DNA of 64,000 nt from Escherichia coli (GTDB lineage: Bacteria; Pseudomonadota; Gammaproteobacteria; Enterobacterales; Enterobacteriaceae), in NCBI RefSeq assembly GCF_030013205.1, contig NZ_CP122648.1. The stretch is one strand, 5' to 3'. A program made the position numbers. Positions 32,601 through 35,600 of this stretch are shown piece after piece (within the stretch, counting starts at the first letter, position 1; every line of letters begins with the position of its first letter).

Positions 32601-35600
32601 ATGCAGCTTACCGCTGAATATAGTTCCAGTTGTTGGCAATGTTTTTTGATCATAGATTACATTGCAATAACCATTCCATGTTGTTTTATTGTCTACATAA
32701 TATTTTGTTGCGTAGTTTCCTTGATCGGTTTTTAATTTACTAACATCCGATTTTAGCGTTTTGATGTCATCAGGAATTACTGTTTTTGTAACCATTGTCT
32801 TACTCCATTAAGCCCATGTCCTTACATGCTGATCTGTCGTAATGAAAGGCATTAAAGAAGATATGTTTTTACTGCTATCAACAATCCTCATGTTTACGAA
32901 AAAACCACCGCGATCAATGCCTGTACATCTTTCGTTTTCTGGCTCCTCGTAATCAATAATGCAGCCAATAACATCAACAAGAACCCCATTTTCTTCTTCA
33001 AGACTGAACAGGCCACTGTCATATACAATTGCGTTAAACTGTTCTCTGTTATCGAATCGTAATGTTATATCCCGCATTATACGTATTCCTTAAGCTGCGT
33101 ATCTGACAATGCTCTGTTCCAGAAACGGAGGTTTTTTATATGACCATTAAGGTGTCGTAATCCTGTCGTCGTTTGCCCCCCGATTCGAATCACGGCTGCT
33201 TCACGAATATATTTCCATACTGTTTTGGTTTCAGTGCTTATATGCTTATTTGCAAATGAGCATGTCATGCCGTCAGCCTTAACCCTGAATCCCATAACGA
33301 GATCTCTTACTCCGCATGACTCATATACACGCCGGTTAGCCCCGCCTATATCGCAATACGAATAACCATCCTGACTGATAGTTCCAGAAGAACCAAACCC
33401 CATAATAAATGGGCCTCCGGACTGGTGATTTTCTGAATCAATGACACGCGGTGCAGCATTATGAGAAATAAACCAGTTTTTATGGACTTCCACCATGAAC
33501 GTAAAAGGCATGGTATACATATTTTTCATCAGCGGAAACTTACATAAATCTGATGCACGAGTCGCTGGCTCTGTTGTCGTTATGATAAAGGAAGTTGCAC
33601 AAGCACCATACTCGAATTGCGGGGTGGTTACTTCTATCCAGTCACCTGTTGCAAAAGCCCCCACTGCTCTGTCGGCTGCAATTTGCAGCTGCGTACCAAC
33701 CATTCCCCATTCTGGCAGACATTTCAGTGTTGCCTGAAAATATATCCATCCACTACCAGGGTCGATTTCAAAGTTTGCTGTTAATAGCTGGGCATTACCA
33801 CCCGTAATTTGTAGTTCATGAGTCTGTAATGACAAATAGGCGTCACAAAGGAAAGTGTATCCTTCCGAGTTATACCGTTCAAAACGGATACGTGCGCGAA
33901 CATTGAGATCACTTCTTACCCTGAACGACGCGGTAACATACGGACCTTTACTGTACTGATCATCGCCAGTCACATCTATGCCTTTATTACCAGCAACTGT
34001 GCATATATTTCTCCCTGTTGTCGTTCCTGCTATCTCACTTCCTACTGTGAAACGTCCATATTTAAACTCAAATTCATCTGTTGATGATGTTACAGATATA
34101 CCACCGCTTTTATTCCACGCATCAGGATTAAAACTATTTACGAACATGTTTGTTCGCTGATTCTCTATCAGCAAACCATATTTTTCAAAACGAGGAACGT
34201 TATTCCCTGCCACGGTAATATGCCCGGACTTATCAATATACGTTGCAGATGAAGCCCGGCTAAATTGGCATATGCCATTAACAGGCATTGTTATTTCATC
34301 ACTGCCGATGGTTATTGTTTTATAGCCCGGGGCATACCCTGTTATCGCTTCCAGAGAATCATTCAAGGGTAGCCAGATATCAGGAAGCGGAGGGACAGAA
34401 GCAGGATCAGCGGCATCTTCTGCAATCCGGGCTGCATTCAGAGGCCACCGTGTTCACCAGTACCGTGGTGCTGTTACGCTTTGCCTTCAGTTGAATAGTG
34501 CAGTTCTGTATTGGTTTTCCCGCACCATCTTTCAGCACACCTGAGATTTTTACTGCTGCCATATCCACTCCACAAAAAAGCCCGCCTGAACCGGCGGGCT
34601 GTCATAACACTGTGTTACCTGGCTAATCAGAACTTATAACCGACACCCACGATGAAACCGTCAGTGCGCCAGTCGCCACTGCCGGAGCCTTCATAAGCAA
34701 TATCAATGGCCACGGATTCGGTCGGGTTAAACTGCACGCCAGCTCCCCACGCCAGAGACGTGTTGCTGTGGCGACCGTCATCACTTCCGGTCAGCACATC
34801 GTGCTTTTTCCCCTTGTTGTCAGTTACGCGGAGATAATCCCCGGAGAAAGTCGACACACGGCTGTAAGCCACACCCGCCATCGCATACGCGCTGAACCAT
34901 TCATTCACGCGCACAGACGGCCCCGCCATTACGCTGAACCAGCGGTTACGAACGGAATCTTCATGCCAGCGGGTATCGCTGTAACGGGTCAGCTGGCGAT
35001 TCTTGTCTCCTGCATAGCTGAATGACGTCACCAGCCCCAGTGTGTCCGTAAACTCATAACGGTATTTCACGTTAATCCCGTTCAGATCATCACTGCCGGG
35101 GACGTTCGTCGAGGCATGAAGATACCCCGCGCTCAGCGTGGACTGATGTTCAGACGCCCATGCAGGCGCACCGGATACGGCCAGACAAATGGCTGCGGAC
35201 AAAATTGCTGCACAAACTTTACGCATAATTACCTCTCGCTTTTCTGCAATAAAAAAGGCGTCATTCCTGACGCCCTTTATTGGGGTTATAAATATTTCAA
35301 CGAATACTGATGCCGGAAGCGGCTTTTTTGGTCACAATCACCGTACAGTCGGTGATATTGCCTGCCCCCTGATTGCCTTTCTGGAAAATCTTAAACTCCA
35401 GAGTGACGCTTCCCCTGCCACTCGGCATATCAATAACTGCACTGTAACTACCGGGAATGGCCCCTTTAGTTTCTCTGGATGCGATTAATACGCCGTTTTT
35501 GCGAACTTCAAAACCATAACCCGTGTATCTTGTACCTCCCGGGTTATTACCACTTCCCGGATCGCTATACGCTATTCCGTTAAAGATAATGGGCGGAATA

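What the first reader, a model, noticed from the sequence alone, without database searches (positions are those of the whole stretch)
33077..34562. Mosaic or disrupted side-tail-fibre gene
The 5' end encodes 41 residues resembling the lambda Stf N-terminus, then the frame breaks (stop at 34407-34409). The long downstream frame, with a ConA/LamG-like C-terminus, is in a different phase and has no nearby ATG. This is either a frameshift pseudogene, a recombination scar from receptor-binding-domain swapping, or a site of programmed frameshifting.
Basis: seen in the sequence. Interest (0 to 1): 0.35.

Follow-up and report, generated by a model that had tools for sequence, protein, structure and literature searches.

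The report
Deletion-broken side tail fibre pseudogene
This is an ordinary dead gene: a lambda-type phage side-tail-fibre gene that lost 872 internal bases, which shifts its frame, inside a prophage that has already lost its head and tail genes.

Summary
On the minus strand, downstream of J' and lom, an ATG at 34562 opens 42 codons of a lambda-Stf N-terminus. Nine aberrant codons and a TGA (34409-34407) follow. A +1-phase frame then runs to the stop at 33079-33077.

The cause is an 872-bp (3x290+2) internal deletion. Intact homologues are single 2358-nt, 785-aa ORFs, as in plaque-forming phage PhiR47_1 and E. coli FDAARGOS_497 and G749. Window nt 1-126 equal intact nt 1-126, and window nt 124-1486 equal intact nt 996-2358. 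The two parts share a 3-nt GAA microhomology at 34439-34437.

The exact junction occurs in 5 of 5426 complete E. coli genomes, all from swine and from two sources. It is therefore real, recent and clonal. The host prophage at prfC is a remnant, with terL' fused to the C-terminal half of J. Sister swine lineages carry a different, non-nested lom-stf deletion at the same locus.

Programmed frameshifting, sequencing error and a domain-swap scar are not supported. The ConA/LamG-like C-terminus is confirmed by a confident model and fold search. Interest is low: routine prophage decay, comparable to the stf frameshift of laboratory lambda.

The parts
34437..34562 (-). stf 5' remnant: codons 1-42 of a 785-codon lambda-type side tail fibre gene. 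This is the first third of the PF08400 tail-attachment domain.
   Evidence: 126/126 nt identical to intact FDAARGOS_497 gene. PF08400 E 1.7e-18, profile positions 2-45 of 134. 37/44 identical to lambda orf-401.
34437..34439 (-). Deletion junction. The GAA microhomology is shared by both breakpoints, and 872 bp (intact gene nt 127-998 or 124-995) are missing.
   Evidence: The prefix match of 126 nt plus the suffix match of 1363 nt exceeds the remnant length of 1486 nt by 3. The junction-spanning 120-mer is found whole in only 5 of 5426 genomes.
34407..34436 (-). Out-of-frame tail of the 5' remnant: nine aberrant codons (CSPDCRRCR) and the TGA stop at 34409-34407.
   Evidence: Translation.
33077..34436 (-). 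stf 3' remnant in the +1 phase, equal to intact gene nt 999-2358 (residues ~333-785 plus stop). RefSeq annotates its TTG-started part (34366-33077, 429 aa) as 'phage head spike fiber domain-containing protein'.
   Evidence: 1357/1363 nt identical to FDAARGOS_497. Annotation in K_EC180.
33554..34171 (-). Middle jelly-roll beta-sandwich domain of the receptor-binding part (GTA head-spike-fibre-like, CBM-like).
   Evidence: NCBIfam NF048003 E 2.4e-13. PDB 6tb9 RcGTA head spike fibre E 2.8e-4. This is the confident segment of the AF2 model, with Foldseek hits to phage fibres and CBMs.
33080..33604 (-). C-terminal ConA-like/LamG domain (last 175 residues).
   Evidence: AF2 pLDDT 88.8. Foldseek hits pentraxin, LG, CBM40 and BoNT-Hcn. 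37/45 homologues hit PF13385. Profile hits in the PDB.
34570..34600 (-). Intrinsic terminator between lom and stf: an 8-bp GC stem followed by a T-run, ending 8 nt before the stf ATG.
   Evidence: The sequence is identical in the intact loci.
34627..35226 (-). lom (Ail/Lom outer-membrane protein), intact here.
35297..37078 (-). C-terminal half of tail-tip gene J. Its N-terminal half was removed by a second deletion that fuses it to a 108-nt stub of terL, with the junction at 37076-37078.
   Evidence: RefSeq annotation of the identical K_EC180 locus. Comparison with ETEC1701 shows about 3.3 kb missing, with a 3-nt overlap.
32808..33077 (-). 89-aa ORF that follows stf in all intact loci (phrog_1361, function unknown).
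31755..32795 (-). Second tail fibre gene (346 aa) with a C-terminal Peptidase_S74 intramolecular chaperone domain. It belongs to the same fibre module.
   Evidence: Pfam PF13884 E 2.4e-12. phrog_4563 full length.

Best explanation
The region is a pseudogene of a lambda-type side tail fibre gene (stf). An ancestral 2358-nt gene encoded three parts: an N-terminal tail-collar domain, an Ala/Ser/Thr-rich repeat shaft, and a two-domain carbohydrate-binding tip made of a jelly-roll plus a LamG/ConA-like domain. That gene suffered one illegitimate (microhomology-level, GAA) deletion of 872 bp. The deletion removed codons 43-332 and shifted the remainder into the +1 phase. Translation from the original ATG gives a 51-residue peptide. 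The 3' part has no ribosome-binding site or ATG of its own and is most likely not made. The event is one of several recent deletions in a lambdoid prophage at prfC that can no longer build virions, so the loss was neutral. Shown: the deletion, its exact ends, its clonal distribution, the decay of the prophage, and the domain identities. Inferred: the deletion mechanism (replication slippage or end-joining at microhomology), the lack of expression of the 3' part, and neutrality.
For: Intact single-ORF homologues of 2358 nt occur in phage PhiR47_1, FDAARGOS_497 and G749. PhiR47.1 and PhiR55.1 are used as plaque-forming phages (bioRxiv 10.1101/2025.11.03.685801). The alignment gives 126 nt of identical prefix, 1363 nt of suffix and a 3-nt overlap, so the deletion is 872 bp = 3x290+2. 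The deleted segment encodes the rest of PF08400 and a shaft that is 61% identical to lambda orf-401 over 285 residues, so it is genuine coding sequence and not an insert in the others. The exact junction is in 5 of 5426 complete genomes: K_EC180 from Korea and four Belgian swine ETEC. By contrast, 131 genomes carry at least 80% of the full-length gene, and the 785-aa protein cluster has 830 member sequences. The window is 99.99% identical to K_EC180 over 36 kb. The prophage lacks all genes between a terL stub and mid-J. ETEC1701 and O139:H1 W13-16 have the same prfC prophage with 100% identical flanks, but they carry a different, overlapping and non-nested deletion. It joins lom nt ~212 to stf nt ~443 at a CAGCTA microhomology. 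The cryo-EM study of Ur-lambda shows that Stf residues 1-94 form the six-strand sheet plus helix that makes the collar on the tail (PMC12617516). Only residues 1-42 remain here.
Against: There are no expression data, so low-level translation of the 3' part from TTG 34366 or ATG 34288 cannot be excluded. The 3' part is still a clean 452-codon open frame, but this is expected because the deletion is very recent (1 mismatch in 7 kb against the sister lineage). The precise ancestral allele for nt 127-442 in this prophage is not directly observed.
Confidence: 0.93

Rival explanations
1. Recombination scar: the junction marks where a foreign receptor-binding module was grafted onto a lambda-type stf 5' end by illegitimate recombination, and it happened to land out of frame.
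For: Tail fibre genes are mosaic. The C-terminal module occurs at about 50% identity on P2-type (PF12571/PF03406) and T5-like lateral fibre N-termini. Many E. coli alleles share only nt 1-891 with this gene. The right breakpoint lies only about 20 codons upstream of where the shared module begins.
Against: Both flanks are from the same allele as in intact genes (126/126 and 1357/1363 nt against FDAARGOS_497). The sister lineage at the same locus has the shaft sequence immediately upstream of the right breakpoint contiguous with the same 3' part. A simple intragenic deletion explains everything with one event.
Confidence: 0.04
2. Programmed +1 ribosomal frameshifting joins the two frames to make a short fibre.
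For: The two frames overlap by 47 nt (34453-34407). The zero frame there contains tandem rare AGA-AGA codons just before the stop (read directly).
Against: Homologues use one frame, and the arrangement is restricted to one clone. There is no X_XXY_YYZ heptamer or prfB-like CUU_UGA with an upstream SD in the overlap. No Rfam element is present. The AGA codons are simply the out-of-frame reading of GCA GAA GAT. The product would lack Stf residues 43-332, including most of the collar domain defined structurally. The prophage has no tail for it to attach to.
Confidence: 0.01
3. Sequencing or assembly artefact.
For: The shaft region of the intact gene contains 21-, 42- and 189-bp tandem repeats that can collapse in assemblies.
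Against: The breakpoints (gene nt 126 and 998) lie outside the tandem arrays (gene nt ~501-951). The same junction is in five complete genomes from two countries and two projects, plus the window.
Confidence: 0.01
4. The 3' fragment is retained and expressed on its own, from TTG 34366 or ATG 34288, as a free lectin-like protein. Two independent deletions removing the stf 5' end in sister lineages would then reflect selection rather than chance.
For: The 452-codon frame is still open. Both independent deletions spare the carbohydrate-binding part and the downstream fibre genes. RefSeq annotates a 429-aa CDS.
Against: There is no Shine-Dalgarno sequence before the TTG, and no promoter-like site lies upstream of it within the remnant. 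RefSeq places the same 429-aa CDS inside fully intact genes, so the annotation is an artefact. The divergence is too small for an open frame to indicate selection.
Confidence: 0.03

Closest known systems
stf frameshift of laboratory lambda (lambda PaPa, orf-401 / orf-314) versus Ur-lambda
   Same: It is the same gene family in the same position after J and lom. The N-terminal domain is the same (84% identity over the retained 42 residues). In both cases a frame-disrupting mutation abolishes side fibres (PMC12617516).
   Different: In lambda PaPa the lesion is described as a frameshift mutation late in the gene of an otherwise viable phage. Here it is an 872-bp deletion after codon 42, in a prophage that has also lost its head and tail genes. 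The C-terminal receptor-binding part is unrelated to lambda's, and no tfa follows.
Intact 785-aa Stf of phage PhiR47_1 / E. coli prophages (phrog_1419; RefSeq cluster 'prophage tail fiber N-terminal domain-containing protein')
   Same: It is the parent gene. Outside the deleted segment it is 97-99.6% identical in DNA and has the same neighbours (lom upstream; orf89, the 346-aa S74 fibre and orf96 downstream).
   Different: The window copy lacks nt 127-998 and is out of frame.
Defective-prophage decay by deletion (for example the cryptic lambdoid prophages of E. coli K-12 such as DLP12, Rac and Qin, with truncated tail fibre genes)
   Same: There are multiple microhomology-level deletions, loss of morphogenesis genes, and retention of lysis, regulatory and cargo genes. 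The comparison with K-12 rests on general knowledge.
   Different: Nothing differs in principle. This is a younger example in which sister lineages still show alternative deletions.
RcGTA head spike fibre Rcc01080 (PDB 6tb9) and ConA-like/LamG carbohydrate-binding domains
   Same: The middle domain matches NF048003 and 6tb9. The C-terminal domain has the LamG/pentraxin/CBM40 fold.
   Different: Similarity is remote (10-18% identity). Here the domains sit at the tip of a siphovirus side fibre. The ligand is unknown.

Membership tests
Lambda-type side tail fibre Stf (PF08400 family) | Complete N-terminal tail-attachment domain (PF08400, 134 positions; residues 1-94 form the collar fold in Ur-lambda) | tested here: not met
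   Only profile positions 2-45 are present in the window. The intact homologue covers 2-131. The structural definition comes from PMC12617516.
Lambda-type side tail fibre Stf (PF08400 family) | Gene position immediately downstream of J and lom in the late operon | tested here: met
   The order J' - lom - terminator - stf is seen on the minus strand. Lambda has the same order.
Lambda-type side tail fibre Stf (PF08400 family) | One continuous reading frame from the N-terminal domain through the shaft to the receptor-binding tip | tested here: not met
   The frame changes at 34437-34439 and the shaft is absent. The region therefore descends from a family member but is a pseudogene.
Lambda-type side tail fibre Stf (PF08400 family) | Downstream tail fibre assembly chaperone (tfa) | tested here: not met
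   The following ORFs are phrog_1361 (unknown function) and a 346-aa fibre with its own S74 chaperone domain. No Tfa family hit was found. The same holds in intact loci.
Programmed ribosomal frameshift site | Two-frame arrangement conserved among homologues | tested here: not met
   PhiR47_1, FDAARGOS_497 and G749 have a single frame. The junction is in 5 of 5426 genomes.
Programmed ribosomal frameshift site | Slippery sequence and stimulatory element within the frame overlap | tested here: not met
   Direct reading of 34453-34407 shows no slippery heptamer and no prfB-like motif with an SD. Rfam gives no hit.
ConA-like lectin / Laminin_G_3 (PF13385) domain | Sequence match above the Pfam gathering score | tested here: inconclusive
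   This sequence scores 20.8 bits against a cutoff of 27.6, but 37 of 45 aligned homologous domains match, with a best E of 4.7e-13.
ConA-like lectin / Laminin_G_3 (PF13385) domain | Beta-sandwich jelly-roll fold of LG/pentraxin type | tested here: met
   The AF2 model has pLDDT 88.8. Foldseek top hits are pentraxins, neurexin/agrin/Gas6 LG domains, CBM40 and BoNT Hcn, at probability 1.00 and TM 0.5-0.65.
Diversity-generating retroelement (considered because an RT gene lies 1.8 kb from the fibre genes) | Template/variable repeat pair between the RT region and the 3' end of a fibre gene | tested here: not met
   No repeat of 25 nt or more other than one chance 25-mer in 28900-35300. The RT is class UG17 with a SLATT partner.

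The most novel reading that the evidence does not exclude
Two independent, overlapping deletions removed the 5' end of stf in closely related swine E. coli lineages. Both spared the two carbohydrate-binding domains and the downstream fibre genes. This could mean that the 3' fragment has been domesticated and is expressed on its own as a lectin-like protein, or that loss of the Stf N-terminus was selected. The alternative is chance decay.
Probability: 0.03. Interest if true: 0.3.

Novelty: already known. Interest (0 to 1): 0.08.

Why it matters
It matters little beyond correct annotation. The locus should be labelled as one stf pseudogene with an internal 872-bp deletion, not as a small N-terminal fragment plus a separate 429-aa 'head spike fiber domain' protein. 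The comparison gives a dated example of stepwise prophage decay, because sister swine E. coli lineages show alternative deletions at the same gene. It also shows that RefSeq splits even intact copies of this fibre gene in the same way, so annotation alone cannot separate live from dead alleles. The intact parent protein, with its jelly-roll plus LamG tip shared with P2-type and T5-type fibres, may interest people engineering host range. That interest attaches to the family, not to this broken copy.

Tried and rejected
(1) The first MAFFT alignment placed the gap wrongly, against the repeat-rich shaft. I replaced it with exact prefix/suffix matching and offset scans.

(2) The first structure prediction, of the whole 452-residue 3' part with 38 close homologues, gave pLDDT 50.7 and a disordered C-terminal domain. 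It could not test the LamG claim. I repeated the prediction on the last 175 residues with 45 diverse domains from an exhaustive HMMER search.

(3) I considered repeat-mediated deletion and rejected it. The tandem arrays (periods 21, 42 and 189) lie inside the deleted segment, and the breakpoints lie outside them.

(4) I considered a DGR, because an RT gene is adjacent, and rejected it. There is no TR/VR pair, and the RT is UG17 with a SLATT partner.

(5) I first took the RefSeq annotation of 'N-terminal pseudogene + internal CDS' in FDAARGOS_497 and G749 as a sign of further independent disruptions. Translation showed both genes are intact, so this is an annotation artefact.

(6) The Rfam scan found nothing at the locus.

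(7) The promoter scan found no convincing promoter for the 3' fragment.

Full report
**Observation**

Reading the minus strand of 32700-35000 and listing the ORFs shows the gene order J' (35297-37108), lom (34627-35226), an intrinsic terminator (34600-34579 plus a T-run), and then an ATG at 34562. From that ATG, 42 codons read MAAVKISGVLKDGAGKPIQNCTIQLKAKRNSTTVLVNTVASE. Nine further codons (CSPDCRRCR) and a TGA at 34409-34407 follow.

A second frame, displaced by +1, is open from 34453 to the stop at 33079-33077. Its first possible start is TTG at 34366, with no purine-rich ribosome-binding sequence in front. Its first ATG is at 34288.

The 51-residue product matches Pfam PF08400 (prophage tail fibre N-terminal) at E 1.7e-18, but only over profile positions 2-45 of 134. 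It matches lambda orf-401 at 37 of 44 residues.

**What broke the frame**

A megablast of 32700-34700 against 5426 complete E. coli genomes found five contiguous 100% matches. More than a hundred genomes matched the same query in two pieces spanning 2871 bp instead of 2001 bp. Four phages of the PhiR series behaved the same way.

In phage PhiR47_1 the gene is annotated as one 2358-nt side tail fibre gene. Translating the corresponding stretch of FDAARGOS_497 and of G749 gives an uninterrupted 785-residue protein, although RefSeq splits both.

Exact matching shows that window gene nt 1-126 are identical to intact nt 1-126, and window nt 124-1486 correspond to intact nt 996-2358. The three-base GAA overlap lies at window 34439-34437. 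The window therefore lacks 872 bp, which is 3x290+2, and this explains the +1 phase of the remainder.

The missing segment encodes the rest of the PF08400 domain and an Ala/Ser/Thr-rich shaft. That shaft is 61% identical to lambda orf-401 over 285 residues. It is ancestral coding sequence, not an insertion in the other genomes. The breakpoints lie outside the 21-, 42- and 189-bp tandem arrays of the shaft. The event is therefore a microhomology-level illegitimate deletion rather than a repeat collapse.

**Is it real, and how widespread is it**

A 120-nt probe centred on the junction is found whole in exactly 5 of 5426 genomes: K_EC180 (swine, Korea) and ETEC1748, 4067, 4069 and 4079 (swine, Belgium). 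Another 1167 genomes match only one half of the probe.

The window is 99.99% identical to K_EC180 over 36 kb. At least 131 genomes carry 80% or more of the full-length gene. The 785-aa protein cluster has 830 member sequences. PhiR47.1 and PhiR55.1 are used as plaque-forming phages in a recent study. The intact form is therefore the functional and common one, and the deleted form is a recent clonal derivative, not a sequencing artefact.

**Context**

The RefSeq annotation of the identical K_EC180 region and direct comparison show a lambdoid prophage between prfC and an integrase gene. It retains regulatory, Q, lysis and small-terminase genes. After a 108-nt stub of terL it jumps straight into the C-terminal half of J, with the junction at window 37076-37078. 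All head and tail-shaft genes are gone, so no virion can be built and a side fibre has nothing to attach to.

Two other swine-associated genomes, ETEC1701 and O139:H1 W13-16, have the same prophage at prfC with 100% identical flanks. They keep a full J gene and carry a different lesion: lom nt ~212 is joined to stf nt ~443 at a CAGCTA microhomology, again out of frame.

Each lineage retains sequence that the other has lost. The window keeps the lom 3' part and stf nt 1-126, whereas ETEC1701 keeps stf nt 443-998. The two deletions are therefore independent and non-nested, and they arose from a recent common ancestor with an intact lom-stf. This is the expected signature of neutral decay.

**How the intact protein works, and why the remnant cannot**

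The cryo-EM structure of Ur-lambda shows that Stf residues 1-94 form a six-strand sheet plus a helix. Twelve copies of this domain make a collar on the gpV/gpM rings of the tail tip (PMC12617516). Only residues 1-42 survive here.

The 3' part contains two domains:
- A jelly-roll domain matches NCBIfam NF048003 (GTA head spike fibre) and PDB 6tb9. It is modelled confidently and has CBM-like and phage-fibre structural neighbours.
- A terminal 175-residue domain was tested separately. Its model has pLDDT 88.8 and matches pentraxins, LG domains, CBM40 and botulinum toxin Hcn. Of 45 homologous domains, 37 hit Pfam Laminin_G_3, and the profile hits ConA-like domains in the PDB.

The tip is most likely a carbohydrate-binding receptor module, but this function is inferred from the fold and has not been shown.

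The same module occurs at about 50% identity behind P2-type and T5-like fibre N-termini. The family is therefore mosaic, as tail fibres usually are.

**Rival readings**

- Programmed frameshifting fails on comparative grounds, because relatives use a single frame and the arrangement is confined to one clone. It fails on sequence grounds, because the 47-nt overlap has no slippery or prfB-like signal and Rfam gives no hit. It also fails on functional grounds, because the product would lack residues 43-332.
- A domain-swap scar is unlikely because both flanks belong to the same allele, and the sister lineage still has the shaft contiguous with the same tip.
- An assembly error is excluded by five complete genomes from two sources.
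- Independent expression of the 3' part cannot be formally excluded without expression data, but it has no start signals. The RefSeq CDS call is an artefact that also appears inside intact genes.
- A diversity-generating retroelement was considered because a reverse transcriptase lies nearby. There is no template/variable repeat, and the RT is a UG17 defence RT with a SLATT partner.

**Comparison with known systems, and verdict**

The closest known case is the stf frameshift that distinguishes laboratory lambda from Ur-lambda. More generally, the locus resembles the truncated tail fibre genes of cryptic lambdoid prophages. RefSeq already flags the 5' piece as an incomplete pseudogene.

This is a real feature, correctly observed, and of an already known and ordinary kind. 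The overall interest is low (0.08).

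Noticed in passing
window 29418-31317 (+): A SLATT-domain gene (29418-29969) overlaps a reverse transcriptase gene (about 29947-31317; the ORF listing gives a TTG start at 29941). PADLOC assigns them to RTasSLATT (E 7.9e-57) and RT_UG17 (E 5.9e-159), a DRT-class defence pair. The pair sits between the fibre module and dinI/prfC. It is absent from the equivalent position of phage PhiR47_1.
   Followed up: partly
window 37076-37183 and 35297-37078 (-): A second deletion in the same prophage fuses a 108-nt stub of terL directly to the C-terminal half of J (3-nt overlap at 37076-37078). About 3.3 kb is missing relative to ETEC1701, which itself already lacks everything between terL and gene K.
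   Followed up: yes
L005 6245-8363 (ETEC1701) and L006 (O139:H1 W13-16): Sister swine lineages with the same prfC prophage carry a different, non-nested deletion. It joins lom nt ~212 to stf nt ~443 at a CAGCTA microhomology, out of frame.
   Followed up: yes
L001 3139-5496 (FDAARGOS_497); L008 3006-5363 (G749): RefSeq/PGAP splits fully intact 785-codon stf genes into an 'incomplete N-terminal pseudogene' plus an internal-start 'phage head spike fiber domain' CDS. In G749 this CDS has the same 429-aa TTG start as in the window. Annotation alone therefore cannot tell intact alleles from deleted ones.
   Followed up: yes
window 31755-33077 (-): No tfa chaperone follows stf in this fibre module. 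Instead there is an 89-aa ORF (phrog_1361, unknown function) and a 346-aa second fibre with a Peptidase_S74 intramolecular chaperone domain, then a 96-aa ORF (phrog_1443). How the two fibres are arranged on the virion is not known.
   Followed up: partly
window 23403-23784 (-) and 56395-56477 (-): Four tandem copies of a 101-bp unit, and one further copy, match Rfam naRNA4 (REP-type nucleoid-associated RNA) between yjjW and yjjV.
   Followed up: no
window 40257-40328 (-); 56625-56944 (+): A tRNA (annotated tRNA-Gly in K_EC180) lies inside the prophage, upstream of the lysis genes. Three tandem tRNA genes lie beyond the integrase end of the prophage.
   Followed up: no
window 38110-38685 (+): A gene annotated as lipopolysaccharide core heptose(II)-phosphate phosphatase lies inside the prophage between the small terminase and the lysis genes, on the opposite strand. 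It looks like a cargo (moron) gene.
   Followed up: no
proteins P0079, P0083, P0109, P0110: The jelly-roll plus LamG receptor-binding module is shared at about 50% identity with P2-type fibres (PF12571/PF03406 N-termini) and with lateral fibres of virulent phages such as KurtStettler and vB_EcoS_XY3. This indicates module exchange across phage types.
   Followed up: partly
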